Source: Terriglobia bacterium (GTDB lineage Bacteria > Acidobacteriota > Terriglobia > 20CM-2-55-15). From it: a DNA stretch of 64,000 nucleotides. Position numbers and translations under genes: made by a program. Positions 208 through 62,102 of the stretch are shown in pieces; within the stretch, counting starts at the first letter, position 1, and every line of letters begins with the position of its first letter. The notes under the pieces were generated by a model. That model saw only the letters and a list, made by a program, of their open reading frames with translations. It made no database searches and was not told the origin of the DNA. The stretch is taken from positions 768,012 to 832,011 of the forward strand of contig CBDAOY010000008.1 in the NCBI GenBank assembly GCA_965198225.1. The letters run 5' to 3'.

Positions 208-316
208 GACTCCCCTCCTCAGATGAGGAGGGGTGGCGCGAAGCGCCGGGGTGGTGCTGACCAAGAGATTCTGCGCCTGTGGCGCAGCTACGCCTCCTTA
301 TCCAGGGAGGGGAGTC
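208..316. repeat. REP/MITE-like element, family 1 (GACTCCCCTCC...GGAGGGGAGTC termini, internal TGGCGCGAAGCGCCA and CTGCGCC..GGCGCAG hairpins)
   Basis: Same modular sequence recurs at 4732-4777, 7783-8005, 36541-36590 and 44586-44753; intergenic; spurious ORF 139..324 lies inside it. Confidence 0.55.
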
Positions 317-2472: not shown

Positions 2473-2921
2473 CCACACCCTGCGTGCAGATGGACCGCGA
2501 TCAACTCGAGTCAGGTCTCGCGGCCTACCTCGGTGAAATGGGTGTTCGGAGCGTCGTGGTCGACTCCGAACGGGTTCGCCTGGAGGCATTCGAGCACGTG
2601 GATTCGCCTCGAGCCGATTGTGGCGTGACCGACGTACTGTGGGGCATCGCATCGACGGGTACCCTTGCGATACCGATGACACCGGACAACCGACGAACAA
2701 CGTCCTTGGTTCCCCCGCTTCATGTCGCTCTGCTCGGAAAGGAGGATCTGATTCCCGATCTCACGATGGCCCTCGATCACCTGTATCAGGGAATGATGAA
2801 AAGGGAGGATCGTCCGTCGAGCGTAGTTTTCGTCACCGGTGCGAGTCGGACCGCCGATATCGAGTTGGACCTGGTCGTCGGGGTGCATGGGCCTCGGGAG
2901 TTACACGTGGTGTTGTTCTAG
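2430..2921 (+). CDS. lutC: LutC-like lactate utilization protein (DUF162/LUD domain)
   Basis: Overlaps the lutAB 3' end; 163 aa; stop TAG lies in the CTAG site that received the IS insertion. Confidence 0.65.
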   Translation: MELVRKFEAAARTLATPCVQMDRDQLESGLAAYLGEMGVRSVVVDSERVRLEAFEHVDSPRADCGVTDVLWGIASTGTLAIPMTPDNRRTTSLVPPLHVALLGKEDLIPDLTMALDHLYQGMMKREDRPSSVVFVTGASRTADIELDLVVGVHGPRELHVVLF

Positions 2922-2963
2922 GGCGTGTTAACACTAATGAGCATGAATGTTTTATAATCACGC

Positions 2964-3371
2964 ATGGAGATCACACAGGAGCAGTATTGTCGCATCGAGC
3001 CGGAACTGCCGCGTCAGCGGGGCAACGTCAGTCTTTCGAACCTGACGGTCTTGAACGCCATTTTGTATGTGGCTGAGCAGGGCTGCAAGTGGCGCGGTCT
3101 GCCCAAGCGCTTTGGCAACTGGCACACCATCTACACCCGGATGAACCGCTGGTCCAAGAACGGCGTGCTCGACGCCGTCTTCGAGAAACTCCAGCGCGAG
3201 CAACTGGTCCGCATCCGGGTCGAAGCCGTTTCGATGGACTCAACCATTGTGAAGGTGCATCCCGACGGCACGGGAGCGTTAAAAAAAACGGTCCGCAAGC
3301 GATCGGCAAATCCCGCGGCGGATGGACCACCAAGATTCATCTGGTTGCCGCGAATGCTCGAACGGCGATAA
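2964..3371 (+). CDS. IS5-family transposase, N-terminal frame (orfA)
   Basis: Sequence ...LTVLNAILYVAEQGCKWRGLPKRFGNWHTIYTRMNRWSKNGV... is typical of the IS427 group; an A8 slippery run at about 3283-3290 fits a programmed frameshift. Confidence 0.8.
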   Translation: MEITQEQYCRIEPELPRQRGNVSLSNLTVLNAILYVAEQGCKWRGLPKRFGNWHTIYTRMNRWSKNGVLDAVFEKLQREQLVRIRVEAVSMDSTIVKVHPDGTGALKKTVRKRSANPAADGPPRFIWLPRMLERR

Positions 3372-3721
3372 CGTTTGCGCTCTCGCCCGGCCAAGCGCAC
3401 GACGCCCCGCAGGGCCGCGATCTGCTCGCCGGCCTGGGGCCATTGCCCGCGCCGCTGCCGCTGCTGATGGACCGTGCCTACCAGGACGACCAGACCCGCC
3501 AATTGGCTCTGGATTTTGGGTGGATTCCCGTCGTGCCGCCCAAGCGCAACCGCCTGGAGCCGTGGGAATACGACCGCGTGCTCTACCGCCGCAGGAACGA
3601 AGTCGAGAGGCTCTTCCGCCGACTCAAGGGTTTCCGGCGTATCTTCTCCCGTTTCGATAAACTCGACGTCATGTTCCTCGCCTTCCTTCACTTCGCGCTC
3701 ATCGTCGAGGCACTACGTTAG
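3089..3721 (+). CDS. IS5-family transposase, C-terminal frame (orfB, DDE domain); expression depends on a frameshift from orfA
   Basis: Sequence ...GWTTKIHLVAANARTAITFALSPGQAHDAPQG...LDFGWIPVVPPKRNRLEPWEYDRVLYRRRNEVERLFRRLKGFRRIFSRFDKL... is DDE-transposase IS427-like. Confidence 0.8.
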   Translation: MARSAQALWQLAHHLHPDEPLVQERRARRRLRETPARATGPHPGRSRFDGLNHCEGASRRHGSVKKNGPQAIGKSRGGWTTKIHLVAANARTAITFALSPGQAHDAPQGRDLLAGLGPLPAPLPLLMDRAYQDDQTRQLALDFGWIPVVPPKRNRLEPWEYDRVLYRRRNEVERLFRRLKGFRRIFSRFDKLDVMFLAFLHFALIVEALR

Positions 3722-3734
3722 TGTTAACACGCCC

Positions 3735-3759
3735 TAGTGACCTGTTACAGGTCACTAGC
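3735..3759. repeat. 25-nt palindrome CTAGTGACCTG-TTA-CAGGTCACTAG (two joined MITE-type termini) containing the stop codons of convergent lutC and the moaD-like gene
   Basis: Perfect 11-bp arms; the same termini flank the 275-bp elements at 14062, 35240 and 51729. Confidence 0.6.
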
Positions 3760-6345: not shown

Positions 6346-6612
6346 GAGGCCCGGAGCGATGCGCATCCATAGGTCCGGGTTGTGGCGAAGTGGATCGATT
6401 GAAGGGTTGGCTAAAGAGGGGTCGGAGCCTCTTCCTCGTCCTGCCCGGGTGACAATATAGATACGAATTGGCAGATCCCCAGGGACGAAATGGCAATGGG
6501 CGTAATCCACTGATACAAAAGGGGATGCGAACTCACACGAAAGCTCGGGGAAACAGCCCTGGTGCTGATATCATGGTTCGATATCAACCAATCGGAGGTT
6601 CGCAGCGCAGCC

Positions 6613-7743
6613 ATGATACGAGGCAAATCTTCTGTCGTTCGGATTGTTCTGATCACATTGACCGGTCTGATGCTGACTGCCGCCTGTGCATCCGAGCCAC
6701 CGCAGTCGTCCCTGGAAAAGATCAACCTTCCGTCGGGTTTCAGCATCAGCACTTACGCTGAAGGCGTGCCCAACGCGCGGTCCATGGCGCTCAGTCCCGA
6801 CCAGACGTTGTACGTGGCGACCCGCCGGGCGGGCAACGTCTACGCGGTCCGCGACGACGATGGGGACAACAGGGCGGATAGAGTGTTCACCATCGCTTCG
6901 GGCCTGACGATGCCTAACGGCGTGGAATTCCGGGAGGGTGCGCTCTATGTTGCGGAGGTCAACCGCGTCCTCCGATACGACGGCATCGAGGGCAAGCTGG
7001 AGAACCCACCGTCGCCCGTGGTGCTCAACGACACACTACCCACGGAAACCCACCATGGCTGGAAGTATCTTCGCTTCGGACCGTACGGCAAGCTGTACTT
7101 CAATATCGGAGCTCCCTGCAACATCTGCGAGCCTGGCGATCCCTATGGTTCGATCGTCCGTATGAATCCGGACGGCACCGGTCTCGAAGTGTTCGCGCGG
7201 GGCGTTCGAAACAGCGTCGGCTTCGACTGGCATCCGGAGTCCGGCGATCTCTGGTTCACCGACAACGGCAGGGACAACCTGGGTGACGACGTCCCGCCCG
7301 ACGAATTGAATCGGGCCTCGGAGGCCGGAATGCATTTCGGCTACCCGTACTGTCACGGCCAGGACATCGCCGACCCCGAATTCGGTAGGTCCGGTCTCTG
7401 CGCCGAATACCAGCCCGCGGCCCAGAATCTGGGACCGCATGTCGCGGCCATCGGTATGACTTTCTACACCGGCGACATGTTTCCGGATGAATACAGGAAC
7501 CAGATCTTCATCGCGGAACACGGCTCCTGGAACCGAAGCGTCCCGATCGGCTACCGCCTGACGCTGGTCCGACTTGAAGGGAACAAGGTTGTCAGCTACC
7601 AGCCTTTTGCCGAGGGCTGGCTCGAGGGCGACGAGGACTGGGGTCGCCCGGCCGACGTCCTCGAGATGCCGGACGGCTCACTCCTGCTTTCCGACGATAC
7701 CGTCGGTGCGATCTACCGAATCACCTACGAAGCGGAAAGATAG
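6613..7743 (+). CDS. PQQ-dependent soluble sugar (glucose/sorbosone) dehydrogenase, lipoprotein-type signal
   Basis: ...LTGLMLTAAC signal/lipobox; YVATRRAGNVYAVRDDDGD, GLTMPNGVEF, FTDNGRDNLGDDVPPDELN, HFGYPYCHG are SGDH beta-propeller motifs. Confidence 0.8.
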   Translation: MIRGKSSVVRIVLITLTGLMLTAACASEPPQSSLEKINLPSGFSISTYAEGVPNARSMALSPDQTLYVATRRAGNVYAVRDDDGDNRADRVFTIASGLTMPNGVEFREGALYVAEVNRVLRYDGIEGKLENPPSPVVLNDTLPTETHHGWKYLRFGPYGKLYFNIGAPCNICEPGDPYGSIVRMNPDGTGLEVFARGVRNSVGFDWHPESGDLWFTDNGRDNLGDDVPPDELNRASEAGMHFGYPYCHGQDIADPEFGRSGLCAEYQPAAQNLGPHVAAIGMTFYTGDMFPDEYRNQIFIAEHGSWNRSVPIGYRLTLVRLEGNKVVSYQPFAEGWLEGDEDWGRPADVLEMPDGSLLLSDDTVGAIYRITYEAER

Positions 7744-7782: not shown

Positions 7783-8056
7783 GACTCCTAGGCGGCCACC
7801 AAAACTCCCCTCCTCAGACCACCCCGTCTGCGCCCCTGGCGCAGCCACCTCCTTATCAAGGAGGGGAGTCCGGGGTGAGGCGAAGGGCCGGGGTGGTGTT
7901 GATCAATAAAATCCCGCCTAAACTTCTGGCGCATCCAATAGCGTGATCCAACCACCCCGTCTGTGCCTTCGGCACATCCACCCCTCCTTATCCAGAGGGG
8001 AGTCGGCTCTCGTCAAGGACAGTGCCGCCACAACGGCCTACGGATAACGGCCTACG
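7783..8056. repeat. Composite repeat block: family-1 modules (two nested copies) followed by a family-3 GGCCTACG motif
   Basis: GGACTCC...CTCCCCTCCTCAG...CTGCGCCCCTGGCGCAG...GGAGGGGAGTCC, then ...CTGTGCCTTCGGCACA...CCAGAGGGGAGTC, then CAACGGCCTACGGATAACGGCCTACGCC. Confidence 0.5.
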
Positions 8057-14061: not shown

Positions 14062-14336
14062 CTAGTGACCTGTAACAGTGCTATCGGTACCAGCGTTCGG
14101 CGGAACGGCGTCGGATTCTAGGAGTGACGCCCGAGCCAATGCTGTTTCATTGCGAGGGCGTTACGACACCGAAGACGGCGCCGTTGGGCCGAACCCTTCG
14201 GGCCGATGGGGGTTGCGGGCGATCTCTTTGTCGGAAGCCGTCACCGATGAAAGAGCATCGCTTTCCGTCTCCCTCCTCGACCTCGCCCGCAAGACCCATC
14301 GGCGATGGTGCCGATAGCACTGTTACAGGCCACTAG
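14062..14336. mobile_element. MITE copy A (275 bp; TIR CTAGTGACCTGTAACAGTGCTATCGGTACCA ... TGGTGCCGATAGCACTGTTACAGGCCACTAG; TA duplication in a CTAG target)
   Basis: Near-identical reverse-complement copy at 51729-52003, diverged copy at 35240-35514; intergenic; internal ORFs not credible. Confidence 0.75.
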
Positions 14337-18779: not shown

Positions 18780-18841
18780 CGTCCTATCCGCCTCCGTGCG
18801 GATTGTCGATCATCTTGCAGGCGCTCCAGGGCGTCGGTGTC

Positions 18842-19981
18842 TCATCGGCTTGAATTCGAGTTGGAGTTGCCGTTCGAGTTGGAGTTGCCGTTCGAATTGA
18901 AGTTGCCGTTCGAGTTGGAGTTGCTGTTCGAGTTGGAGTTGCTGTTCGAGTTGGAGTTGGAGTTGCTGTTGCTGTTGGAGTTGCCGTTCGAATTGGAGTT
19001 GGAGTTCGTGTTCGAGTTGGAGTTCGTGTTGCCACCACCACCATTGGCGTTGCCGCCATTGCCGTTGCCCCCGGAGGGCGTCGTCATGAAGCCGAGGATC
19101 CCGCTCCGCCGAAGCGTGACGTCGGAGCTGAGGGTCACGTTGATCTGATTACCCGAGACGGGGTGGTTCTGACTCGCGAAGGATGTGACCGAGAGGTTGA
19201 TCCGCGTGATATTGCCGAGGGTGCCGGTCGGAACCGAACTCTGTCCGCTACCGCCGCCGCTACCACCGCTGCCACCGCTACCGCCGTTCCCGTTGGAATT
19301 TGTGTTGCCGTTGGAGTTCGAATTCGTGTTGCCGTTCGAGTTCGTGTTGCCGTTCGAGTTTGAATTCGAGTTGGAGTTGCTGTTCGAGTTGGAGTTGCTG
19401 TTCTGGTTGGAGTTGCTGTTTGAGTTGGAATTGCCGTTCTGCGCTGCCAACGTGATGAAGCCCCATCGGCGGAGGAGTCGAGCGACGGGAGACGCCGTGG
19501 GTGACGGGGGATTGCTGACGAAGCTTCCGGCATCACCGGTCGACACGAAATACGCAAAGAGCAACGCCGAGATATTGGATGCCAGTTGCTGCGACGTCGC
19601 CGTGCCTGTCAGGGCACCGGTCGCGTCCAACGGTTGTGTCGTCCGTGTGATGATGTTGTTGGCGTAGCTGAACGTCACCCGTTCGACCGTTCCGTCATCA
19701 TTCGTGTCGCCCGAAAAGGCGACCGTGGACTGATCGGCCTGGGCGATCGGCGTCACACCGGCGGGAGTGTTGTAGCCGGCGGACAGCAATTCCCGCCCGA
19801 TGCGTTCGGCTGCGAGCCGGGAATTCTGGCCGGCCTCGAGCTGGGACTGCTGGATCTGATAGGTTCTCTGATTCTGGGTGACGAGGAGAAAGACCGCTCC
19901 GAGGACGACCATCAACACAGCCACAACGATCAAGACTTCCAGCAGGGTGAAACCTTTGCTTCCTCTCTGTGCAGCTCTCAT
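18842..19981 (-). CDS. PilW/GspJ-like prepilin-type minor pilin with a long Asn/Ser/Gly-rich repetitive C-terminal tail
   Basis: Class III signal ...SKG|FTLLEVLIVVAVLMVVLGAV; C-terminal (NSNSNG)n, GGSGGSGGSGGGSG and (NSNSNS)n tracts encoded by hexanucleotide repeats. Confidence 0.6.
   Translation of the reverse strand: MRAAQRGSKGFTLLEVLIVVAVLMVVLGAVFLLVTQNQRTYQIQQSQLEAGQNSRLAAERIGRELLSAGYNTPAGVTPIAQADQSTVAFSGDTNDDGTVERVTFSYANNIITRTTQPLDATGALTGTATSQQLASNISALLFAYFVSTGDAGSFVSNPPSPTASPVARLLRRWGFITLAAQNGNSNSNSNSNQNSNSNSNSNSNSNSNSNGNTNSNGNTNSNSNGNTNSNGNGGSGGSGGSGGGSGQSSVPTGTLGNITRINLSVTSFASQNHPVSGNQINVTLSSDVTLRRSGILGFMTTPSGGNGNGGNANGGGGNTNSNSNTNSNSNSNGNSNSNSNSNSNSNSNSNSNSNSNSNGNFNSNGNSNSNGNSNSNSSR
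18850..19032. repeat. Tandem hexanucleotide/18-nt repeat tract 1 (GAGTTG/GAGTTC units) inside the pilW-like gene
   Basis: gttcgagttggagttgccgttcgagttggagttgc... repeated; encodes (NSNSNG)n on the minus strand. Confidence 0.75.
19288..19440. repeat. Tandem hexanucleotide repeat tract 2 inside the pilW-like gene, preceded by a GGTAGCGGC repeat (19237-19290)
   Basis: gttggagttcgaattcgtgttgccgttcgagtt... encodes NSNSNSN; the GGS-coding repeat lies immediately upstream on the coding strand. Confidence 0.75.
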
Positions 19982-20000
19982 AGACAAACTCTCCCTCGTG

Positions 20001-20405
20001 TTACGGGGCCCGATAGGTTCGGGCCGAGAGGTCGATCGGCGATGTTCCACCGATACCGGTGATAACGGTCGTGGTCACCGTGATCTCTTTCATCCCGACG
20101 CCCGGGGAATCGACTGTGACGGTCCAGGATCGGGTGAAGGCAGCTCCTGTCTCGGAAGTTTGCGGAATCCCGTCATCGTCCAGAAAGTCATTTCCGCTCT
20201 GCAAGGAATCATACGATGTGGCCTTCAATTCCTCCATCTTTTGTCGCAGGGCGGAGGTCATCCTCGAGATGTCCTGACTGTTCTTCGTTCCGATGACACT
20301 GGTGCTCATCGCGCCGGCCACCGCGAGGACGCCCGTCATCAGGATGAGCGAGGCAAGCATCAACTCGATGAGGCTGAAGCCTCTCTGGCTACTGGATGCT
20401 GACAT
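20001..20405 (-). CDS. PilV/GspI-like prepilin-type minor pilin
   Basis: N-terminus MSASSSQRG|FSLIELMLASLILMTGVLAV is a prepilin cleavage/methylation motif; 134 aa. Confidence 0.65.
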   Translation of the reverse strand: MSASSSQRGFSLIELMLASLILMTGVLAVAGAMSTSVIGTKNSQDISRMTSALRQKMEELKATSYDSLQSGNDFLDDDGIPQTSETGAAFTRSWTVTVDSPGVGMKEITVTTTVITGIGGTSPIDLSARTYRAP

Positions 20406-22570: not shown

Positions 22571-23806
22571 ATGAAGAACGCGAAACTGCACGCCTTCAAC
22601 AGACTCGCATTTGGGCCGCGGCAGGAAGATCTCGATCGCGATCTGGTCGATCTTCAGGAACACGTCGAGGTCCAGCTCCACCCGGCCGACATCGCCGACC
22701 AGGCGATAGAGCAGCGGCTGGCGACCCTGGAAACGCTCGGCATGTCGCCCCTGGAGTTCCTGAGGAAGTATCCCGGGCGCCGGGACTGGCGGATCGGTTT
22801 GCAGCAGCTGACGGCCGCAAAGCTGCTGCGCGCCGTCCAAAGCGAATGCCAGCTCCGGGAAGTGATGGTCGACTTCTGGTTCAATCACTTCAACGTATTC
22901 GCGGGTAAAGGTGCATGCCGGCTCCTGGTTTCTTCCTACGAGAGAGACGCCATCCGCCCGTACGTCTTCGGAAAGTTTCGCGAACTGGTGTCGGCGACGG
23001 CGCGCCACCCTGCGATGCTGTTCTACCTGGACAACTGGCTGAGCGCGTCGCCCGACGCCGAGCCGCGTGGGCGTCGTCGTGGGCTCAACGAGAACTATGC
23101 CCGGGAGTTGATGGAACTGCACACGCTCGGCGTCGATGGTGGCTACACGCAGGAAGACGTCGTCGCCGTGGCGCGCGCCTTCACCGGCTGGACGATAGAG
23201 GCCCCCCGGCGCCCGAGCTTCATGTTTGCCCCACCGCTGCATGACGACGGTGCCAAGACCGTCCTTGGCAGGGCGATAGACGGCGGCGGGATGCGGGATG
23301 GCGAACAGGTGATCGATGTGCTCTGTGGTCACCCGTCTGCGGCGCGGTTTGTCGCGACCAAATTGATTCGGCGTTTCGTCTCCGACGATCCCCCTGCGGC
23401 GCTGGTGGAGAGTGTGGCGCGGACGTTTACCCGGACGGATGGCGACATCCGGGAGATGCTCCGCGTGGTGATCCATTCGCGGGAGTTCGCCGAATCGGAA
23501 CAGCAGAAGGTCAAGACGCCGTTCGAGTTCGTCATCAGCGCCGTGCGTGCGCTCGGAGCCGAGGTGAGCAATCCCGGTATTCTCGCGCGGTTCCTGCAGC
23601 GGATGGGTCAGCCGCTCTACATGGCCATACCGCCGACCGGCTACTCCGACGAGGCGGCCGATTGGATGAGCTCCGGCACGCTGATGTTGCGTCTCAACTT
23701 CGTGGCGCAGATCGCTGCGGGGCGATCGCGGGGAATTCAGCTCGACGGGCGCGAGCCGGAGCAGATCGTCAGGAATCTGGGGACGCCGGAGTTTCAGCGG
23801 CGCTAG
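22571..23806 (+). CDS. DUF1800 family protein
   Basis: ...WFNHFNVFAGKGACRLLVSSYERDAIRPYVFGKFRELVSATARHPAMLFYLDNWLS... is the diagnostic DUF1800 block; pairs with a DUF1501 gene. Confidence 0.7.
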   Translation: MKNAKLHAFNRLAFGPRQEDLDRDLVDLQEHVEVQLHPADIADQAIEQRLATLETLGMSPLEFLRKYPGRRDWRIGLQQLTAAKLLRAVQSECQLREVMVDFWFNHFNVFAGKGACRLLVSSYERDAIRPYVFGKFRELVSATARHPAMLFYLDNWLSASPDAEPRGRRRGLNENYARELMELHTLGVDGGYTQEDVVAVARAFTGWTIEAPRRPSFMFAPPLHDDGAKTVLGRAIDGGGMRDGEQVIDVLCGHPSAARFVATKLIRRFVSDDPPAALVESVARTFTRTDGDIREMLRVVIHSREFAESEQQKVKTPFEFVISAVRALGAEVSNPGILARFLQRMGQPLYMAIPPTGYSDEAADWMSSGTLMLRLNFVAQIAAGRSRGIQLDGREPEQIVRNLGTPEFQRR

Positions 23807-24077
23807 CAGCCCGTGGCAGAACTCTGCAGGGCCGCGTTACGGCCAAACGGGGACCGGATTCTAGGAGGCGAGGACGAAACAATGCTCATTCATTGGGAGG
23901 AGTCGGCGACAACGAAGACGGCCCCATTTCGCCGTAACCCGAAGGGCGCAGGGGGGGGCGGGCCGCAGGCTTTGTCGCTCGTCGGTCACGATGAATGATC
24001 ATCGCTCCGCTCCTCTCTTCGCGCCTGCAACCCGAAGACCCCTGCGCGCGACCCTCCAGAGTTCTGCCACGGGCTGC
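23806..24077. mobile_element. MITE copy D: same roughly 210-bp core as copies A/B/C but different 30-bp termini (GCAGCCCGTGGCAGAACTCTGCAGGGCCGC ... inverted), with TA duplication
   Basis: Core blocks cggattctaggag, aatgct..ttcattg.gagg, cgaca.cgaagacggc, ctttgtcg and gtcac.gatgaa.ga.catcgct are shared with 14062-14336; flanked by TA/TA; sits between the DUF1800 and DUF1501 genes. Confidence 0.55.
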
Positions 24078-24122
24078 TATAGGGATGTTATTTCTGATTC
24101 AGGACGCCAGTTGGGTGAGGGA

Positions 24123-30194: not shown

Positions 30195-30499
30195 TGCTAG
30201 TGTCCTGAGTCGGGAACAATATCGCTATCGCAGACGAGTGTTGCTCGAGCAAATTTCGGACTCAGGACACTGTTACATGCCACCAGACGAGCCCCCGCTT
30301 TCGGAACCTTCCGAGGCGGCGACTCCTGACTACCCGTCCAGGGGCCCCTCCCTACCGAGGAGGGTCGCACCCCCCTGATGAATTCCTGTATTTCCTGCAT
30401 GGAGACGCGCAATTTTTACGTCTTATTAAGTGAGACGGCCATATGGAGACGTACGCAAGAAATTCGCGCGAGGGATTAAATCACTGATTCTATTTTTCT

Positions 30500-31953: not shown

Positions 31954-31990
31954 AAAAAGGCGACGACTCCTCGAGTCGTCGCCTTTTTGG
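31954..31990. terminator. Bidirectional rho-independent terminator (AAAAA-GGCGACGACTC-ctc-GAGTCGTCGCC-TTTTT) between the convergent EAL-HDOD and amidase genes; followed by a solo MITE terminus GTTACAGGCCAC-TA-TA at about 31992-32008
   Basis: 11-bp GC-rich stem, A-run upstream and T-run downstream. Confidence 0.65.
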
Positions 31991-32000
31991 TTACAGGCCA

Positions 32001-33425
32001 CTATAGCGGCGGACGACGGCGGTGCCAGTCGGTCTGGGACTCGTAGGCATGACTGACCTTGAACAGCGTGAACTCATCGAACGGCCGACCGTAGAACTGG
32101 ATCGTAATCGGTAATACCGGAGGGCCCGAAGCAAAGCCGCAGGGGATCGTGATCGCCGGCAGTCCCGTCATGTTCCCGATGAACGTGTTGCCTCGGCGAA
32201 ACCGGGGAGTCGACGCTCCAGGGCGGACGTCGCTCCGCGCCTCCTCGGCCGATCGGAGCCTGCCCGCCACGCTCGTGTTGCCCGGCACGGCCATGACGTC
32301 ACACGTTTCAAAGACCCGCTTCATGTCCTCTTGCAGTATGGTTCTCACGCGCAGAGCCTTGATGTAGTCGGTTGCGGTGTAGAACTTCCCGGTTTCGAGG
32401 CGCTCTCGTACCAGGGGGTCGAACAGGTGGGGCGACTCTCTTAGACGTCTCTCGTGAAAACATGCTGCTTCGGCCATAGCGACGGTCCAGCCGGCCGATC
32501 CGGCGAGGTTCGCGTTCGGGACTTCAACGTCCACTATCCGCGCTCCCATCTCGGTGAGCGAACGAATTGCTTCCCGAACCGCGCCGTCGACTTCATCGGA
32601 CGCTCCCTCGAAGAAGTAGTTCGTCGGAACGCCGATCCTCAGCCCTCGAATGTCGCCGTCCAGGGCACGATCATAGTCGGGGACAGCCTCATCGATCGTG
32701 CTGGGGTCCGCAGCGTCGAAGCCGGCCATGACCTGCAGCATGTGTGCGGCGTCGGCGACTGTCTTGGTCATCGGTCCGGCATGATCCAGCGTCCAGCTCA
32801 GCGTTGTCACGCCGTGGCGGCTGACGCGACCGTAGGTCTGTTTCAACCCTACAATTCCGTTCGCAGCCGCGGGTCCCCGGATGGACCCTCCCGTGTCGGT
32901 GCCGATCGACAACGGAACCATGTAGGCAGCCAGCGCAGCGCCCGAACCGCTGGAGGATCCGGCCGGCGAGTAGTCCAGATCCCAGGGATTGTGCACGGGT
33001 CCGAAGCCGGATAGGACGCCGCTGCCCATCGCGAACTCCAGCAGGTTCAGCTTCCCGATCAGGATGGCGCCGGCACGGTTCAGGCGATCGGTGATCGTGG
33101 ACTCGTAGTCGGGAACCCAGTTGGCCGTGACTTTTGATCCGTTCGTCGTGAGGATGTTTCTGGTCGCCAGGATGTCTTTGGGTGCGTAAGGGATGCCGTG
33201 CAGCGGGCCGCGGTAGCTTCCACCCTGTATCTCGCGCTCTGCCTCGCGTGCTCTCCGTAGAGCGTGCTCGCGCGTGAGGGTGATGAAGGCGTTGACCTGC
33301 GGATTGAGTCGCTCCGCGCGGTCGAGGAACGCTGTGACGACTTCAACCGGGGACACCTCCCGTGAACGTACGAGGTCTGCGAGTTCCACACCACTCTTGA
33401 AAACAAGATCCTCGGCCTGCATCAT
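32001..33425 (-). CDS. Amidase-signature family amidase (GatA/AtzE-like)
   Basis: AS motif GSSSGSGAALAA, the catalytic Ser-cisSer-Lys region, and the APKDIL block; 474 aa. Confidence 0.8.
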   Translation of the reverse strand: MMQAEDLVFKSGVELADLVRSREVSPVEVVTAFLDRAERLNPQVNAFITLTREHALRRAREAEREIQGGSYRGPLHGIPYAPKDILATRNILTTNGSKVTANWVPDYESTITDRLNRAGAILIGKLNLLEFAMGSGVLSGFGPVHNPWDLDYSPAGSSSGSGAALAAYMVPLSIGTDTGGSIRGPAAANGIVGLKQTYGRVSRHGVTTLSWTLDHAGPMTKTVADAAHMLQVMAGFDAADPSTIDEAVPDYDRALDGDIRGLRIGVPTNYFFEGASDEVDGAVREAIRSLTEMGARIVDVEVPNANLAGSAGWTVAMAEAACFHERRLRESPHLFDPLVRERLETGKFYTATDYIKALRVRTILQEDMKRVFETCDVMAVPGNTSVAGRLRSAEEARSDVRPGASTPRFRRGNTFIGNMTGLPAITIPCGFASGPPVLPITIQFYGRPFDEFTLFKVSHAYESQTDWHRRRPPL

Positions 33426-35239: not shown

Positions 35240-35514
35240 CTAGTGGCCTGTAACGGAGATATCGGCACCATCGCCGATGGGTCTTGCCAGTCGAGGTCGA
35301 GGAGAGAGGAGGAATTGATGCGGTTTCATCATGACGACGAACGACAAAGAGATCGACGGCAACCCCCATCGGCCCGGAGGGTTGCGGCGGAACGGCACCG
35401 TCTTCGTTGTCGCTCCTCCTCGCAATGTAGGCGCATTACCTCGTCGTCGACTCCTAGAATCCGGTGCCGTTCCACCGCAACGCTGGTACCGATATCTCCG
35501 TTACAGGCCACTAG
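35240..35514. mobile_element. MITE copy B (diverged; CTAGTGGCCTGTAACGGAGATATCGGCACCA ... TGGTACCGATATCTCCGTTACAGGCCACTAG) inserted exactly between the gnd stop and the FGGY-kinase start
   Basis: Same termini and core as 14062-14336 and 51729-52003; the gnd TAG stop lies in the right CTAG, the kinase GTG is 1 nt from the left CTAG. Confidence 0.7.
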
Positions 35515-36419
35515 TCTCCGGGGGCCACATCATGGCCCCCGAACTGCTGACGGAGCGCAGCGACGAGCTTGTTAGAGAAAGCGTCCGGGTCCCGGGACTG
35601 CAGGCGCGCAATCAGCGAAAGCGTGATGATGGGGGCGGCCACGTCGAGTTCGACCGCTTCGGCTACGGTCCATCGTCCTTCTCCGGAGTCCTCCACATGG
35701 GCTCCGACGGAGGAAAGTCCCGAATCCTGCCGGAGAGCCCGTTCTGCAAGTTCGAGAAGCCAGGAGCGTATGACGCTACCCTGATTCCAGATTTCGGCGA
35801 CCTGGGACAGGTCCAGGTCAAATTCCGCCTTTTCGCGCAGGATCGCGAAACCCTCGGCGTACGCCTGCATCATCCCGTACTCGATTCCGTTGTGGATCAT
35901 CTTCACGAAGTGTCCTGCTCCAGCGGGTCCGACTCGACCCCACCCTCCGTCCGGGGCGGGTGCAAGCGTCTCGAACACCGGGCGTAGACGATCTACCACC
36001 TCCTCAGTCCCCCCGATCATCAGACAGAAGCCGTCGCTCCGACCCCAGATCCCTCCACTGGTTCCGACGTCCAGGAAGGAGACAGCGTGCGCCCCCAACC
36101 GGCCGTGACGACGGAGCGTGTCTTTATAGTTAGAGTTGCCGCCATCGACGACGATTGCGTCGTTTCCCAGGGCCGGAAGGAGCTCTTCAATTACGGCGTC
36201 GACGGCGCTGCCGGCCGGCAGCATCAGCCACACCACCCTCGGCTCGTGTGTCTTTTGGAGGACATCCGACAACGACTCGGCGGCTTCAAATCCGTCCGGC
36301 TCGAGCCCGCGTGCCATTTCCGGATCCCGATCGTAACCGATGACACGATGGCCGCCCGCCTGGAGTCGGCGCGCAATGTTGGCGCCCATCCGACCCAGGC
36401 CGACGATGCCAATTTCCAT
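35511..36419 (-). CDS. gnd: 6-phosphogluconate dehydrogenase (decarboxylating), short-chain Gnd/YqeC type
   Basis: MEIGIVGLGRMGANIARRL Rossmann motif; ...GGNSNYKDT..., ...GTSGGIWG..., ...HFVKMIHNGIEYGMMQAYAEGF... match 6PGDH. Confidence 0.8.
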   Translation of the reverse strand: MEIGIVGLGRMGANIARRLQAGGHRVIGYDRDPEMARGLEPDGFEAAESLSDVLQKTHEPRVVWLMLPAGSAVDAVIEELLPALGNDAIVVDGGNSNYKDTLRRHGRLGAHAVSFLDVGTSGGIWGRSDGFCLMIGGTEEVVDRLRPVFETLAPAPDGGWGRVGPAGAGHFVKMIHNGIEYGMMQAYAEGFAILREKAEFDLDLSQVAEIWNQGSVIRSWLLELAERALRQDSGLSSVGAHVEDSGEGRWTVAEAVELDVAAPIITLSLIARLQSRDPDAFSNKLVAALRQQFGGHDVAPGD

Positions 36420-36540: not shown

Positions 36541-36590
36541 GACTCCCCTCTTCGGATGAGGAGGGGTGCGGGGGTGGAGCGCACTCTAAC
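36541..36590. repeat. Family-1 hairpin fragment (GACTCCCCTCTTCGGATGAGGAGGGGTG) within GAGTGC...GCACTC, upstream of the SMR gene
   Basis: Matches the termini of family-1 elements; GTGACAAGTGA direct repeats just upstream. Confidence 0.45.
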
Positions 36591-36609
36591 AAAACGAAAG
36601 GATCCCAAT

Positions 36610-41102: not shown

Positions 41103-41273
41103 GCCGTAGGCCGTTGCGCGTAGGCCGATGGGCCAACCGAACAGGTCGTCTCCATCCGACTGCAGCTCACATTGTCACACCGCGGACCGTCAGTGCGGGA
41201 CACCATCGACCGTTATGCGTCCCTAACGGCCTACGGCCTACGTTCTTCATCCGCGGCCTACGTTCTTCACGAA
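41100..41273. repeat. Family-3 element: GTAGGCCGTAGGCCGTT... ...AACGGCCTACGGCCTACG inverted termini around a roughly 110-bp core
   Basis: Related copy at 42585-42735; fragments at 350-375 and 8030-8056; overlaps the amt stop and the oadB-like stop. Confidence 0.5.
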
Positions 41274-42412
41274 ATTCCCAGCCCGCTGACCACCGACAGC
41301 ATGATCGCCGCGGCCATGATGGAGCCGACTTGACCCCCGGTGTTGGCTCCCATGGCGTGCATCAGCAGGTAGTTTTTCCGGTTGTATTTCTGACCTTCGA
41401 CCTGAGCGACACGCGCAGCCATCGGGAACGCCGAGATGCCGGCGGCGCCGATCAGGGGATTGACCTTACCTCCGGTCGCGAGACACATCAGCTTGCCGAA
41501 CAGGACCCCCATCGCCGTGTCCAGGATGATGGCGATGAACCCGAGGGCGAAGATGCCCAGCGTCTGGATCTGTAGAAACTGTTCAGCCTGCATCGTCGCA
41601 CCTATCGTCAAGCCCAACAGGAGCGTCACGATGTTTGCGATCTCGTTCGCCGAGGTCTGGGCCAGACGGTCGACGACGCCCGCTTCCTTCATCAGGTTGC
41701 CGAGCATCAACATGCCCATCAGGGGCGCTCCGACGGGCGCGATCAATGCGGTGAAGACTGTCACGACGATGGGAAAACAGATCTTGGCCCTCTTCGAGAC
41801 CGACTTCTGTCCGCTGCTTCCCATCATTACCTGTTTTTCCTTCTTCGTCGTCAGGAGCCGCATCACAGGCGGCTGGATCAGGGGAACCAGCGACATGTAG
41901 GAGTAGGCGGCGACGGAGACGGATCCGAGCAGGTGGGGCGCATAAGTCGACGTGACGTAGATCGCGGTAGGGCCGTCGCAGGCCCCGATGATCCCGATGG
42001 CAAGCGCTTCGAGTTTTGTGAAACCGATCAACAACGCCAGCAGCAAGGTCAGGAAGATCCCGAACTGCCCGGCCGCGCCGAGAAGCAGGATTTTCGGGTT
42101 GGCCAGCAGGGGTTCAAAGTCGGTCATCGCGCCGATCCCGACGAAAATGAATATGGGAAAGAGCTCCGTGAGGATACCTGCATCATAAAGCGTCCGGAGA
42201 AACCCGTCCGGCCCCATCACCTCGGCAAGAGGGATGTTCGTCAGGATTGCGCCGAACCCGATGGGAACGAGCAGCAGCGGCTCGAATCCCCGACCGATGC
42301 CCAGGTACAGCAGACCGCAGCCGATGAGCATCATGAGGAGATGTCCGGCCGTGAAGTTGGTGAAGCCGAGAAGGAGGGTCTCCAAACCGGCACGTAGCGA
42401 CTCTGTCAGCAC
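41267..42412 (-). CDS. Na+-translocating decarboxylase beta subunit (OadB/MmdB/GcdB family)
   Basis: 9-10 TM; family-typical ...ILTNIPLAEVMGPDGFL..., ...FIFVGIGAMTDFEPLL..., ...NPLIGAAGISAFPMAARVA...; GTG start. Confidence 0.8.
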   Translation of the reverse strand: MLTESLRAGLETLLLGFTNFTAGHLLMMLIGCGLLYLGIGRGFEPLLLVPIGFGAILTNIPLAEVMGPDGFLRTLYDAGILTELFPIFIFVGIGAMTDFEPLLANPKILLLGAAGQFGIFLTLLLALLIGFTKLEALAIGIIGACDGPTAIYVTSTYAPHLLGSVSVAAYSYMSLVPLIQPPVMRLLTTKKEKQVMMGSSGQKSVSKRAKICFPIVVTVFTALIAPVGAPLMGMLMLGNLMKEAGVVDRLAQTSANEIANIVTLLLGLTIGATMQAEQFLQIQTLGIFALGFIAIILDTAMGVLFGKLMCLATGGKVNPLIGAAGISAFPMAARVAQVEGQKYNRKNYLLMHAMGANTGGQVGSIMAAAIMLSVVSGLGIS

Positions 42413-42572: not shown

Positions 42573-42584
42573 GGGGTAGAAGAA

Positions 42585-42768
42585 GTAGGCCGTAGGCCGT
42601 TATCCGTTGTCCGTTCAGTGCCCGACAAGGTTTCCTCAGTCCGACAGCCGTTCAAGCCTGAGGTATGCGAACTGTCATTGCTGGCGGATGTCAACGGTCA
42701 TGCTCCCCTAACGGCCTACGGACAACGGCCTACGGATTGGGAGCATCGGCCTTCAGCCGATGCTCCCA
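42585..42768. repeat. Family-3 element (GTAGGCCGTAGGCCGTTATCCGTTGTCCGTT ... AACGGCCTACGGACAACGGCCTACGG) plus an adjacent 14-bp-stem hairpin over the biotin-carrier stop
   Basis: Inverted termini about 100 nt apart; hairpin TTGGGAGCATCGGC-cttca-GCCGATGCTCCCAA at 42736-42768. Confidence 0.5.
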
Positions 42769-44585: not shown

Positions 44586-44753
44586 GGACTCCCCTCCTCG
44601 GATCAGGAGGGGTGGCGCGAAGCGCCAGGGTGGTGTCGACCGGGAAGAAAACCACCCCGTTGGCGCCCTTGGCGCATCCACCCGGGCAATCGAACCACCC
44701 CGTCTGCGCCTTCGGCGCATCCACGCCTCCTTATCTATCCAAGGAGGGGAGTC
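44586..44753. repeat. Family-1 REP/MITE-like element (full modular copy)
   Basis: GGACTCCCCTCCTCGGATCAGGAGGGGTGGCGCGAAGCGCCAGGGTGGTG ... ACCACCCCGTCTGCGCCTTCGGCGCATCCAC...CTCCTTATCTATCCAAGGAGGGGAGTC. Confidence 0.6.
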
Positions 44754-51728: not shown

Positions 51729-52003
51729 CTAGTGGCCTGTAACAGTGCTATCGGTACCATCGCCGATGGGTCTTGCGGGCGAGGTCGAGGAGGGAGACGG
51801 AAAGCGATGCTCTTTCATCGGTGACGGCTTCCGACAAAGAGATCGCCCGCAACCCCCATCGGCCCGAAGGGTTCGGCGGAACGGCGCCGTCTTCGGTGTC
51901 GTAACGCCCTCGCAATGAAACAGCATTGGCTCGGGCGTCACTCCTAGAATCCGACGCCGTTCCGCCGAACGCTGGTACCGATAGCACTGTTACAGGTCAC
52001 TAG
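51729..52003. mobile_element. MITE copy C (reverse-complement, near-identical to copy A)
   Basis: CTAGTGGCCTGTAACAGTGCTATCGGTACCA...TGGTACCGATAGCACTGTTACAGGTCACTAG; spurious ORFs 51729..51941 and 51748..51987 mirror those in copy A. Confidence 0.75.
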
Positions 52004-52163: not shown

Positions 52164-53048
52164 ATGGCAGGCCGCGTTCGAATCTTGGTGTCGAGACATG
52201 CCGCCTTCTACACCCCTTTGATCGTCACGATCGCGGGAGGCTTTCTCCGAGAGGAGGGTCTGGCTTCGACTTACGCCGTAAAGCCCGTGGATCGGGGCAC
52301 TTTCGACATTCTCGCAGCGGGCGAAGTCGATGTCGTACAAGCCGCGGTGTCCTCAAACTGGGCGCGGATGGAGAAGGGAGTCCCCGATCTCCCGGCACAT
52401 TTCGCCCAGATCAACCGTCGTGACGGGTTCTGGATCGCTGCCCGTGAGGCAGGATCGTTTGACTGGAAGGATCTGGAGGGGAAGAACCTGCTGGCCGATC
52501 ACGGCCCCCAGCCGATGGCCATGCTGCGGTACGCAGGGTCAGGGCAGGGGGTGGATTGGGACAAAGTGACCCTCGTCGACGCCGGCGGACCGGGCGACAT
52601 CGATGCCGCGTTCAGAGCAGGACAGGGCGATTTCGTCCACCAGCAGGGGCCGGCGCCCCAGCAACTGGAAGACGATGGGGTGGGCTACGTCGTCGCGTCG
52701 GTGGGGCAGGCCATGCCGCCCGTCGCCTTCAGCAGCCTGATGGCATCCCATGATTTCCTGAAGACCGCAATCGCAAAGGCTTTCATGCGGGCCTACCGAA
52801 GGGCGCTGGCCTGGCTCCAGAAGGCCACGGCGAGCACCATAGCGGCTCGGGAAGCGGCATACTTTCCCGATGTCCCGGCGCCGGTCCTCACTCGCGCGAT
52901 CGCGGCCTACAAAGAAATCGGTTGCTGGTCTGAGGATCCCGCAATCCCGGAGCCGGAGTACAATCGATCCCTGGATGTCTTCCTGGCTGCCGGCGCCATT
53001 ACGAAACGACATGCTTTCGGGGAAGTCGTCGTCCCCCCGCCTGGCTAG
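52164..53048 (+). CDS. NMT1/THI5-like (ABC substrate-binding-fold) protein without an obvious signal peptide
   Basis: Type II periplasmic-binding fold; N-terminus MAGRVRILVSRHAAFYTPLIV lacks a signal peptide. Confidence 0.55.
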   Translation: MAGRVRILVSRHAAFYTPLIVTIAGGFLREEGLASTYAVKPVDRGTFDILAAGEVDVVQAAVSSNWARMEKGVPDLPAHFAQINRRDGFWIAAREAGSFDWKDLEGKNLLADHGPQPMAMLRYAGSGQGVDWDKVTLVDAGGPGDIDAAFRAGQGDFVHQQGPAPQQLEDDGVGYVVASVGQAMPPVAFSSLMASHDFLKTAIAKAFMRAYRRALAWLQKATASTIAAREAAYFPDVPAPVLTRAIAAYKEIGCWSEDPAIPEPEYNRSLDVFLAAGAITKRHAFGEVVVPPPG

Positions 53049-56140: not shown

Positions 56141-56169
56141 GACCGTGACAAGTGTCACGCCACGGGCTG

Positions 56170-56712
56170 CTAAAGCTTCTTGAACGTCCCGAACACAACA
56201 TCCCAAACGGGGGACGTCACGCCGTAACAATTCCTCTCATCGATGAAATGATGGTAGAAATGGCGCCTTCGGTGCCAATCGACCCCTTGTGAACGAGAGC
56301 TGACGTGTACGCTGTAGTGGACCCACTCGTAGTAGAGGAATCCCGCCCAGAGGCCCATCATCACGCCGGCAGCCGACAAGAGGCTGGCGGTCCACGCGTG
56401 CACGATGGCCAGGATCAGGGCAGAAATCGGAATGCTGAACAGCGGCCGCACCAGGATCTTGTTCGGATTCCTCGGATCGGCGTGATGGGCCAGATGAAAC
56501 TGGTAGACGAGTTTGCGCAGGCTCGGGTTGGAAGGGCTCCAGTGAAAGACGAATCGGTGGAGGCCGTACTCCAGAAGAGTCCAGATCACTAAGCCCGCTG
56601 GTCCCAGCCAGAGATAGTCGACGAAAGACCGCTGCCCCTCGACCTGAGTCGCAGAGTAAACAAGGATCGCCGCAGCCGAAGGATAGAACCAGAACGAGCA
56701 GAAGCGCACCAT
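56170..56712 (-). CDS. Fatty acid hydroxylase / sterol desaturase superfamily membrane protein
   Basis: Histidine boxes ...HRFVFHW..., ...HLAHHADPRN..., ...HHFIDERNCYG... Confidence 0.6.
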   Translation of the reverse strand: MVRFCSFWFYPSAAAILVYSATQVEGQRSFVDYLWLGPAGLVIWTLLEYGLHRFVFHWSPSNPSLRKLVYQFHLAHHADPRNPNKILVRPLFSIPISALILAIVHAWTASLLSAAGVMMGLWAGFLYYEWVHYSVHVSSRSQGVDWHRRRHFYHHFIDERNCYGVTSPVWDVVFGTFKKL

Positions 56713-62072: not shown

Positions 62073-62102
62073 CATGCAGCGATACAGGCCGGGATTGCCG
62101 GG

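What the first reader, a model, noticed from the sequence alone, without database searches (positions are those of the whole stretch)
14062..14336. A 275-bp MITE family with CTAG-containing termini and TA target duplication, present in at least three full copies (14062, 35240, 51729, both orientations)
Copies A and C are near-identical reverse complements; copy B is diverged (about 85%). All have 30-bp terminal inverted repeats beginning CTAGTG(G/A)CCTGTAACAG and sit in intergenic DNA. The ORFs predicted inside them (for example 14124..14336 and 51729..51941) are almost certainly artefacts. The termini resemble the IS427-group IS in this window (GTGTTAACAC versus CTGTAACAG), and both element types duplicate TA in CTAG. 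This suggests trans-mobilisation by an IS5-family transposase.
Basis: seen in the sequence. Interest (0 to 1): 0.55.

Follow-up and report, generated by a model that had tools for sequence, protein, structure and literature searches.

The report
Structured MITE family in Acidobacteria
The 275-bp repeat is a real, multi-copy, non-coding mobile element (a MITE) of soil Acidobacteria that inserts at TA inside CTAG. It is an ordinary kind of element, with one unusual feature: a very stable three-armed fold kept intact by many paired base changes.

Summary
Observation confirmed and extended. The three reported copies exist (A vs C 99%, A vs B 82%). I found a fourth, diverged copy at 23803-24080, a 19-bp palindromic remnant at 3735-3757, and decayed tips.

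These gave about 120 copies, 95 of them unique and full-length, in 28 subfamilies.

The element has 31-34-bp terminal inverted repeats, no conserved ORF, and TA on both sides, usually within CTAG. One nested insertion shows the TA duplication. 31% of copies sit exactly on a gene's TAG stop codon.

Subfamilies differ strongly in repeat sequence but stay complementary. The whole element folds as a Y: 96% of cells paired, 47 of 69 pairs with double changes.

Orientation relative to genes is random. There is no promoter, terminator, Rfam match or significant strand asymmetry, so I read it as a selfish DNA element, not an RNA gene.

The window's IS427-type IS shares the target but not the termini. 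A different 1.5-kb IS5/IS1182-like IS matches the ends of the diverged (D-type) subfamily 20/20. No partner was found for the A/B/C copies.

Verdict: a new MITE family of a known kind; moderate interest.

The parts
14062..14336 (+). Copy A (A-type subfamily), given here from the C of the left CTAG to the G of the right CTAG. TA lies at 14063-14064 and 14334-14335; the element proper is 14065-14333.
14065..14095 (+). Copy A, left arm of the terminal stem (left inverted repeat, GTGACCTGTAACAGTGCTATCGGTACCAGCG). It pairs with 14303-14333.
   Evidence: (I12)
14096..14193 (+). Copy A, arm 1. This roughly 100-nt hairpin is the best-conserved part of the family. It holds GGATTCTAGGAG and CGACACCGAAGACGG, with GA/GA internal loops and a CAATG-loop-CATTG tip.
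14194..14202 (+). Copy A, junction mini-hairpin CCC-TTC-GGG, nearly invariant across subfamilies.
   Evidence: helix 6
14203..14302 (+). Copy A, arm 2. This second roughly 100-nt hairpin has a conserved base (CCGATGGGGG / AAGACCCATCGG, with compensatory changes) and a variable distal part.
   Evidence: helix 7
14303..14333 (+). Copy A, right arm of the terminal stem (right inverted repeat).
35240..35514 (-). Copy B (B-type subfamily, 82% identical to A). Its flanking TA plus the element's terminal base forms the TAG stop codon of the minus-strand 6-phosphogluconate-dehydrogenase-like gene 35511..36419.
51729..52003 (-). Copy C (A-type, 99% identical to A). It lies between the divergent ECF sigma-factor gene and the NMT1-like gene.
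23803..24080 (+). Its core is about 71% identical to A. Its tips, GCAGCCCGTGGCAGAAC, match the IS5/IS1182-like IS family. Its left TA plus first G is the stop codon of the DUF1800 gene 22571..23806.
   Evidence: (I13, I2)
3735..3757 (.). Remnant of an A-type copy: TA-GTGACCTGTTACAGGTCAC-TA. This is what deletion between the near-identical 9-nt repeats CTGTAACAG and CTGTTACAG inside the two inverted repeats would leave. The same remnant occurs at three other loci elsewhere.
2919..3736 (+). IS5-family IS of the IS427 type (orfA DUF4096, orfB DDE_Tnp_1), with tips GGGCGTGTTAACAC and TA duplicated inside CTAG. It inserted into the TA that flanks the remnant. It has the same target as the MITE but different termini, so it is not the partner.
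30197..30286 (.). Degenerate hairpin element of about 90 bp. It has a family-like tip (GTGTCCTGAGTC) and a decayed A-type right end (CACTGTTACATGCCACCAG).
   Evidence: (D5)
31988..32003 (-). Solo decayed B-type tip (TAGTGGCCTGTAAC on the minus strand).
56157..56172 (-). Solo D-type / IS-type tip (TAGCAGCCCGTGGCG on the minus strand).

Best explanation
The element is a non-autonomous DNA transposon (a MITE) of Terriglobia (Acidobacteriota). It encodes nothing.

Shown for the D-type subfamily: its outermost 18-20 bp at both ends copy the right end of a 1.5-kb IS5/IS1182-like insertion sequence.

Inferred: the DDE transposase of that IS, or of an unseen sibling IS for the A/B/C copies, acts in trans. 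It binds both tips, moves the element, and inserts it at TA, preferentially inside CTAG. A 2-nt staggered cut produces the TA duplication.

Because the element starts with G and ends with C, each junction rebuilds TAG. Insertion exactly on a TAG stop codon therefore leaves the gene intact, and such copies survive.

The interior is not derived from the IS. It is a self-complementary module with a 31-bp terminal stem, two roughly 100-nt hairpin arms and a small junction hairpin. Pairing is preserved through many double substitutions.

Inferred, not shown: copies that fold well are the ones that amplify, because folding (in single-stranded DNA or as a cruciform) brings the two tips together for a transposase supplied in trans. 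Hairpin-templated correction of the arms may also contribute.

Inferred from the remnant sequence: copies are lost by slippage between the 9-nt repeats inside the two inverted repeats, which leaves a 19-bp palindromic footprint.
For: Copy number and spread:
- About 120 copies, 95 unique and full-length, in 28 clusters at 92% identity.
- 31 A-type copies have a median pairwise identity of 97.5%, indicating a recent burst.

Target site:
- TA on the left in 78/95 copies and on the right in 83/95. The outer C is present in 77/95 and the outer G in 72/95.
- Nested insertion: L017 6610-6885 sits inside the GGATTC-TA-GGAG site of another copy.
- Some adjacent copies share a single TA.

Non-coding: the internal ORF frame is not conserved.

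Cognate IS:
- L032 5118-6603 carries a 471-aa transposase (DUF772 + DDE_Tnp_1). It is flanked by cTA...TAg, and its right end matches D-type MITE ends 20/20.
- Multi-copy relatives in the same MAGs have the same tips.
- 63 metagenomic relatives all carry GCAGCCCGTGG-like tips and TA, mostly within CTAG.
- A 64-bp chimera of a MITE tip joined to an IS right end lies at L092 2991-3054.

Fold:
- z = -12 on both strands.
- 96.2% of cells paired versus 78% in shuffles and about 40% in slid controls. 47/69 pairs changed on both sides; 0/500 shuffles reached the observed values.

Selfish behaviour:
- Orientation relative to neighbouring genes is random, 44 same to 48 opposite.
- 29/95 copies sit on a TAG stop codon, versus 13% of unoccupied CTAG sites.

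Footprints: the 19-bp remnant occurs at four independent loci.
Against: - No autonomous IS with the A/B-type tips (GTG[A/G]CCTGTAAC) was found. I searched about 1.1 Mb of fetched DNA, 63 ISs of the family, and a targeted metagenome scan. The partner of the copies named in the finding is therefore inferred, not shown.
- No true empty site was recovered for any window copy.
- The single nested insertion has one mismatch in the duplication (AA...TA).
- The IS and the MITE share only the tips. The conserved core has no counterpart in the IS, so why the core is conserved is unexplained.
- The conservation of GGATTCTAGGAG and CGAAGACGG is inflated, because these were the search pattern.
- Compensatory changes in DNA palindromes can arise by template switching, without selection for structure.
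Confidence: 0.8

Rival explanations
1. The A/B/C copies are mobilised by an IS630-family transposase, not an IS5-type one. IS630 elements classically insert at CTAG and duplicate TA.
For: - A 1.15-kb IS630-family IS (NF033545, 268 bits) is present in the same MAGs. It is flanked by cTA...TAg and has tips GTGGTCCCCGTCAAACAG and GTGTAGTCCGTCACAG.
- These tips are weakly similar to GTGGCCTGTAACAG (p about 0.004-0.01 per test).
- That IS630 elements target CTAG with TA duplication is established knowledge.
Against: - The similarity needs gaps and is borderline after 56 tests. Seven relatives sampled have no closer tips.
- A-type and D-type tips are clearly homologous: the same length and register, differing only by transitions. 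D-type tips equal the IS5/IS1182-like IS 20/20.
Confidence: 0.12
2. The window's own IS427-type IS5-family element (2919-3736) is the mobilising partner.
For: - It has the same target and duplication, TA in CTAG.
- The IS is multi-copy in the MAG richest in A-type copies, at 97% identity.
- It twice sits directly against a MITE or a MITE remnant.
Against: - Its tips, GGGCGTGTTAACAC, do not match any MITE subfamily better than shuffles do once multiple testing is allowed for.
- Adjacency is expected anyway, because the MITE's flanking CTAG is itself a target.
Confidence: 0.05
3. The element is primarily a structured non-coding RNA gene or cis-regulatory RNA that happens to be dispersed. The Y-shaped fold would then be selected at the RNA level.
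For: - Covariation is very strong and junction residues are conserved.
- With RNA parameters the aligned strand folds better than its complement in 21 of 28 subfamily representatives (mean 6 kcal/mol, Wilcoxon p = 0.016).
- G-U exceeds A-C 71 to 25 when counted per sequence.
Against: - Orientation relative to flanking genes is random.
- There is no promoter-like or terminator-like site and no Rfam match, even at E up to 10.
- The G-U excess disappears when counted as independent events: 20 versus 13.
- The strand difference comes mainly from two related clades.
- Inverted-repeat tips, TA duplication, nested insertions and a cognate IS all explain the dispersal without any RNA.
Confidence: 0.08
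4. It is a REP/BIME-like repeat or an IS200/IS605-derived palindromic element, moved as single-stranded DNA by a HUH (Y1) transposase.
For: - The fold is extensive and is kept by compensatory changes.
- Such elements depend on folded single strands (established knowledge for IS608 and REP/RAYT systems).
Against: - HUH-moved elements have no terminal inverted repeats that reach the ends and make no target duplication. This element has both.
- The tips equal those of a DDE-type IS.
- No strand bias is detectable.
Confidence: 0.02

Closest known systems
Bacterial MITEs that share only their tips with an IS (for example RUP of Streptococcus pneumoniae with IS630-Spn1, or the IS5-family-related MITE of Porphyromonas gingivalis, PMC4596501)
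   Same: Small size, no coding capacity, terminal inverted repeats identical to those of a resident IS, a short target duplication, many intergenic copies, and subfamilies produced by bursts.
   Different: The inverted repeats are about twice as long as the part shared with the IS. The interior is a conserved three-way-junction fold unrelated to the IS. Subfamilies in the same genome carry very different, yet internally complementary, inverted repeats.
Correia elements (NEMIS) of Neisseria and ERIC/IRU elements of enterobacteria
   Same: Palindromic MITE-like repeats that insert at TA, can fold into long hairpins, sit next to genes in either orientation, and have no securely identified transposase. 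This comparison rests on general knowledge of these families.
   Different: - Those elements are 100-160 bp single hairpins. This one is 272-278 bp and Y-shaped.
- A cognate IS is identifiable here for one subfamily.
- No IHF site, promoter or RNase III role has been tested here.
IS5/IS1182 superfamily insertion sequences that target CTAG-like sites
   Same: TA is duplicated inside CTAG, as in the window's IS427-type IS and the IS1182-family IS near MITE copies. The tip GCAGCCCGTGGCAGAAGT is shared with D-type copies.
   Different: The MITE lacks a transposase gene and shares no interior sequence with these ISs. The 471-aa transposase of the matching IS falls below the NCBIfam cut-offs for both IS1182 (149 vs 270 bits) and IS5 (89 vs 140 bits).
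Nearly precise excision of Tn10/Tn5 (slippage between short direct repeats inside inverted ends)
   Same: The 19-bp remnant TA-GTGACCTGT(T/A)ACAGGTCAC-TA is what slippage between CTGTAACAG and CTGTTACAG would leave. The stem would promote that slippage. The comparison with Tn10/Tn5 rests on general knowledge.
   Different: The mechanism is inferred from sequence only. No before-and-after pair at one locus was found.

Membership tests
MITE (bacterial non-autonomous DDE-type element) | Small (under about 600 bp) with no conserved coding capacity | tested here: met
   Length is 271-279 bp, with variants up to 314 bp. The internal ORF frame and length are not conserved, and subfamilies differ by 1-nt indels.
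MITE (bacterial non-autonomous DDE-type element) | Terminal inverted repeats that reach the ends | tested here: met
   Inverted repeats of 31-34 nt are present in every subfamily.
MITE (bacterial non-autonomous DDE-type element) | Target-site duplication | tested here: met
   TA flanks 78/95 left ends and 83/95 right ends. A nested insertion into a single internal TA is flanked by AA...TA, one mismatch. No orthologous empty site was recovered.
MITE (bacterial non-autonomous DDE-type element) | Many dispersed copies with unrelated flanks | tested here: met
   About 120 copies in 90 loci from at least 12 MAGs, with the scan truncated.
MITE (bacterial non-autonomous DDE-type element) | An autonomous IS in the same genomes with the same termini and the same duplication | tested here: inconclusive
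   Met for D-type copies: 20/20 identity with the right end of the IS5/IS1182-like IS, which lies in the same MAGs. Not met for the A/B/C-type copies of the finding.
Derivative of, or partner to, the window's IS427-type IS5-family IS | Termini shared with that IS | tested here: not met
   GGGCGTGTTAACAC compared with the MITE tips gives a best p of 0.01-0.05 in 56 tests, consistent with chance.
Derivative of, or partner to, the window's IS427-type IS5-family IS | Same target and duplication | tested here: met
   The IS is flanked by cTA...TAg.
IS630-mobilised MITE | TA duplication at CTAG | tested here: met
   This feature is not specific, because the IS5-type elements here do the same.
IS630-mobilised MITE | Termini matching an IS630-family element | tested here: not met
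   Only a gapped, borderline similarity was found. Relatives sampled have tips GTGTAGTCCGTC....
Structured RNA family (Rfam-type) | Match to a described family | tested here: not met
   No hit at gathering thresholds in the window. Only chance-level hits appeared at E up to 10 on the element.
Structured RNA family (Rfam-type) | Covariation that supports a fold | tested here: met
   47/69 pairs have double changes and 96.2% of cells are paired. Controls are far lower. This does not discriminate, because inverted DNA repeats give the same signal.
Structured RNA family (Rfam-type) | Defined transcribed strand (orientation bias, promoter or terminator, G-U over A-C) | tested here: not met
   Orientation is random. 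There are no promoter or terminator sites. Event-level G-U to A-C is 20 to 13. There is only a weak strand difference in fold energy.
Structured RNA family (Rfam-type) | Expression as a discrete RNA | not testable with these tools
   No transcriptome data were available.
REP/BIME or IS200/IS605-derived palindromic element | No terminal inverted repeats at the very ends and no target duplication; association with a HUH transposase | tested here: not met
   Inverted repeats and a TA duplication are present. The tips equal those of a DDE-type IS.

The most novel reading that the evidence does not exclude
The conserved Y-shaped interior is not a passenger. It would be a structure-selected functional module that the element needs in single-stranded form. 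One possibility is folded DNA that presents the two tips to a transposase supplied in trans. Another is an RNA with its own activity.

On that reading, this would be a mobile structured nucleic acid that merely borrows IS tips. Different tip sets (GCAG..., GTGG..., GTGT...) would have been swapped onto one conserved core.
Probability: 0.15. Interest if true: 0.65.

Novelty: new member of a known kind. Interest (0 to 1): 0.35.

Why it matters
- **Annotation.** The family causes spurious ORF calls inside the element, over-extended neighbouring ORFs and contig breaks in Acidobacteriota assemblies. A model of it would clean these up.
- **Biology.** It is a clear example of a MITE that survives by landing on CTAG. 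That tetranucleotide is about 7-fold depleted in these genomes and often coincides with TAG stop codons, and the element rebuilds the stop codon on insertion.
- **Mechanism.** The family gives a large natural series of compensatory variants. These could test whether MITE amplification depends on folding of the element and not only on tip sequence, which is an old but rarely tested idea.
- **Tool value.** If the IS5/IS1182-like transposase moves D-type copies, it would give a simple two-component transposition system for a phylum with few genetic tools.

Tried and rejected
1. **Rfam.** Searched at gathering thresholds on the window and at E up to 10 on the element. Nothing meaningful.
2. **Internal ORF (14124..14336) as a gene.** Rejected, because frame and length are not conserved.
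3. **Similarity of the MITE tips to the window's IS427-type IS and to the IS1182-family IS (GGAGTCTGCGCGGCAGA).** Not better than shuffles.
4. **Parent IS among large inverted-repeat pairs in the fetched loci.**
   - All pairs were two separate MITE copies.
   - L044 5087-6794 is a MITE split by an IS256-family insertion.
   - The solo tips in L018 flank ordinary genes.
   - The L064 hit is a small transposase pseudogene fragment.
5. **MITE core as a deletion derivative of the IS.** The apparent match to the L032 IS subterminal region (CGGAACGGCGTC...GATTCTGGAG) is not shared by other ISs of the family.
6. **Targeted metagenome scan for an A-type IS left end** (TAGTGRCCTGT-N38-44-CCGTATCGCGA). 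No hits.
7. **IS630 relatives as the A-type partner.** Their tips are not closer.
8. **Empty sites via exact-protein look-ups of three flanking genes.** All recovered contigs carry the element or break at it.
9. **G-U versus A-C strand test.** The apparent 71:25 ratio is due to shared ancestry. At event level it is 20:13.
10. **Second nested case (L058).** Too rearranged to read a duplication.

Full report
**1. The observation**

By BLASTN, A and C are 98.9% identical as reverse complements, and B is 82% identical to A. Each copy ends in 34-nt inverted repeats that are 91-94% complementary (I8, I11, I12).

- A fourth copy at 23803-24080 (+). Its interior is about 71% identical to A, and its 33-nt inverted repeats are very different in sequence yet complementary to each other (I2, I13).
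- A 19-bp palindrome, TA-GTGACCTGTTACAGGTCAC-TA, at 3735-3757, consisting only of the two tips.
- Decayed tips at 30197-30286, 31988-32003 and 56157-56172.

Copy D is flanked by cTA...TAt. CTAG is therefore not part of the element: the element runs from G to C and is flanked by TA.

**2. Family size and host**

I scanned one genome per species with a pattern taken from the conserved interior (GGATTCTAGGAG-N25-55-CGAAGACGG). All are in Acidobacteriota MAGs, mostly Terriglobia, including Candidatus Versatilivorator.

An HMM built from the four window copies found about 120 copies in these loci. Of these, 98 are full-length and 95 are unique, in 28 clusters at 92% identity. One MAG (CBDAPB...) contributes 39 loci. 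Its 31 A-type copies have a median pairwise identity of 97.5%, which indicates a recent burst.

The window itself is contig ERZ25072076:ctg243008 (191,963 bp), from an uncultured relative of that MAG.

**3. Evidence that it is mobile DNA**

- Flanks are unrelated between copies.
- The dinucleotide next to the element is TA in 78/95 left ends and 83/95 right ends. The next base outward is C in 77/95 and G in 72/95.
- Some adjacent copies share a single TA.
- In L017, one copy (6610-6885) is inserted inside another copy at the internal site GGATTC-TA-GGAG. It is flanked there by AA and TA, so the single TA has become two, with one later mismatch.
- No orthologous empty site was recovered for the window copies. 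Every contig that encodes the same flanking proteins also carries the element or ends at it.
- Copies lie between genes. With a codon-usage gene finder trained on these sequences, element orientation relative to the upstream and downstream genes is random: 44 same to 48 opposite, and 46 to 48.
- In 29 of 95 copies, the flanking TA plus the element's first G is the TAG stop codon of a neighbouring gene. Only 13% of unoccupied CTAG sites are at stop codons and 42% are inside genes. CTAG occurs at 0.49 per kb, about 7-fold below the composition-based expectation I estimated from the 61% G+C base frequencies.
- Copies B and D in the window are of this stop-codon kind.

**4. It is not coding, and not a known RNA**

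The ORF inside copy A (14124..14336) changes frame and length between subfamilies, which differ by single-nucleotide indels. Rfam gives nothing at gathering thresholds and only chance-level hits at E up to 10. The element contains no sigma-70-like promoter and no intrinsic terminator.

**5. The fold**

Both strands of copy A fold into a Y, at about -165 and -160 kcal/mol (z = -12). The fold has a 31-bp terminal stem made by the inverted repeats, two hairpin arms of about 100 nt, and a small CCC-TTC-GGG hairpin at the junction. Copy D folds the same way.

On an alignment of 27 subfamily representatives (A2):
- The consensus structure has 69 pairs, and 47 of them change on both sides.
- 96.2% of cells are standard pairs, against 78% in column shuffles and 37-45% when partners are slid. 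0 of 500 shuffles reach the observed values.
- The terminal stem carries most of the double changes. The bases of both arms also show them, for example CCGATGGGG/ACCCATCGG versus GCGCAGGGG/ACCCCTGCGC, and UUC/GAA versus UGC/GCA.

Arm 1 and the junction are the most conserved parts, while arm 2 and the inner part of the terminal stem vary. Part of arm 1's conservation is imposed by my search pattern. Residues outside the pattern, however, are also invariant or nearly so:
- the TT that follows the stem;
- GCCG-N-AACCC...GGGC;
- GGGGGTT;
- AAGACCC.

**6. DNA element or RNA gene?**

Counted per sequence, G-U pairs outnumber A-C mismatches 71 to 25 on the aligned strand. Counted as independent events in the terminal stem, the ratio is 20 to 13, which is not significant.

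With RNA parameters the aligned strand is more stable than its complement in 21 of 28 representatives (p = 0.016). The difference comes mainly from two related clades.

Taken with the random orientation and the absence of transcription signals, the evidence does not support a strand-specific RNA function. Compensatory change in DNA palindromes can also arise by hairpin-templated correction (established knowledge of quasipalindrome mutagenesis). Covariation here therefore shows that pairing is maintained, but not how.

**7. Who moves it**

*The window's own IS.* The window holds an 818-bp IS5-family IS of the IS427 type (DUF4096 + DDE_Tnp_1; NF033580). Its tips are GGGCGTGTTAACAC and it is flanked by cTA...TAg. 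It shares the target, but its tips are no more similar to the MITE tips than shuffled sequences are.

*An IS1182-family IS.* This 441-aa element, with tips GGAGTCTGCGCGGCAGA, also duplicates TA in CTAG. It is common near MITE copies but does not match either.

*The matching IS.* L032 5118-6603 is a 1.49-kb IS with a 471-aa transposase (DUF772 + DDE_Tnp_1). The transposase scores below the NCBIfam cut-offs for both IS1182 and IS5.
- It is flanked by cTA...TAg.
- Its right end, TAGCAGCCCGTGGCAGAAGT, is identical over 20 of 20 nt to both ends of D-type copies.
- Its ORF reads through the right inverted repeat and stops at the TAG created by the insertion.
- Multi-copy relatives in the same MAGs (P0063, P0028) have the same tips.
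- So do 63 relatives from unrelated metagenomes with 56-69% protein identity. All carry GCAGCCCGTGG-like tips with TA, mostly within CTAG.
- A 64-bp chimera joins a MITE tip to the IS right end (L092 2991-3054).

*What the IS and the MITE share.* Beyond the tips, nothing. The MITE is therefore not a deletion derivative of this IS.

*The A/B-type tips.* GTG[A/G]CCTGTAACAG aligns in register with GCAGCCCGTGGCAG and differs only by transitions. An intermediate form, GCAGCCTGTGGCAG, also exists. No IS with A/B-type tips was found in any fetched DNA or in a targeted metagenome scan.

*An IS630-family IS.* This element, present in the same MAGs, has weakly similar tips, with p about 0.004-0.01 per test. 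Relatives sampled are no closer.

**8. Loss of copies**

The remnant TA-GTGACCTGT(T/A)ACAGGTCAC-TA occurs at window 3735-3757 and at three other loci (L028, L030, L034). It is what slippage between the near-identical 9-nt repeats CTGTAACAG and CTGTTACAG inside the two inverted repeats would leave. This resembles nearly precise excision of Tn10. The mechanism is an inference from sequence.

In the window, the IS427-type IS later inserted into the TA that flanks this remnant. In L030 the same IS abuts a full-length copy.

**9. Verdict**

The specific link to the window's IS is not supported, and the link to IS5-type transposases holds only through a different IS and only for the D-type subfamily.

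The element is a new family of a known kind. Its one unusual feature is the conserved, covarying three-way fold, whose reason is not established. That is the basis for the less likely but more interesting reading: that folding itself is required for amplification.

Noticed in passing
window 208-310, 7818-8000, 36541-36595, 44587-44743: A second short repeat family made of G+C-rich hairpins (GACTCCCCTCCTCAGATGAGGAGGGG..., ACCACCCCGTCTGCGCC...GGCGCA). It recurs in intergenic stretches (D4, D6, D8, D9, D12).
   Followed up: no
window 61602-62079: Three tandem units of about 220 bp, 90-100% identical (D3, D7, D10).
   Followed up: no
window 18815-19463: Repeats with an 18-nt period inside the minus-strand ORF 18842..20050, implying a protein with a repeated hexapeptide (D1, D2).
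   Followed up: no
window 41087-41242, 42573-42735 and 8012-8056: ACGGCCTACGG-type repeats. An inverted pair flanks ORF 41267..42412, with TA next to both arms (D14, D17, D19, I16, I19). This may be another small mobile unit.
   Followed up: no
window 30197-30286: A hairpin element of about 90 bp with a tip like the MITE family (GTGTCCTGAGTC) joined to a decayed A-type right end. It may be a much shorter derivative of the family.
   Followed up: partly
L032 5189-6604; also L091-L096: The transposase ORF of the 1.49-kb IS5/IS1182-like IS reads through the right inverted repeat. It ends at the TAG formed by the TA duplication plus the flanking G, so the stop codon exists only after insertion into a CTAG-like site.
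   Followed up: partly
L032 6604-7759; L191, L193: A 1.15-kb IS630-family IS (TA in CTAG) repeatedly sits directly beside IS5/IS1182-like ISs. This is consistent with several unrelated elements competing for the same rare CTAG sites.
   Followed up: partly
L004 5480-7022, L014, L028, L047, L078, L081 and others: An IS1182-family IS (441-aa transposase, tips GGAGTCTGCGCGGCAGA, TA in CTAG) is present in 9 of the 90 MITE-bearing loci. At L004 it shares its TA with a MITE copy.
   Followed up: partly
L044 5087-6794: A MITE copy is split by an IS256-family (Mutator-type) insertion inside its left inverted repeat.
   Followed up: yes
L106, L107: JGI metagenome contigs that encode the NMT1-like protein of window 52164..53048 begin 14-16 bp upstream of the gene. 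That is close to where copy C lies, which suggests the repeat breaks short-read assemblies.
   Followed up: no
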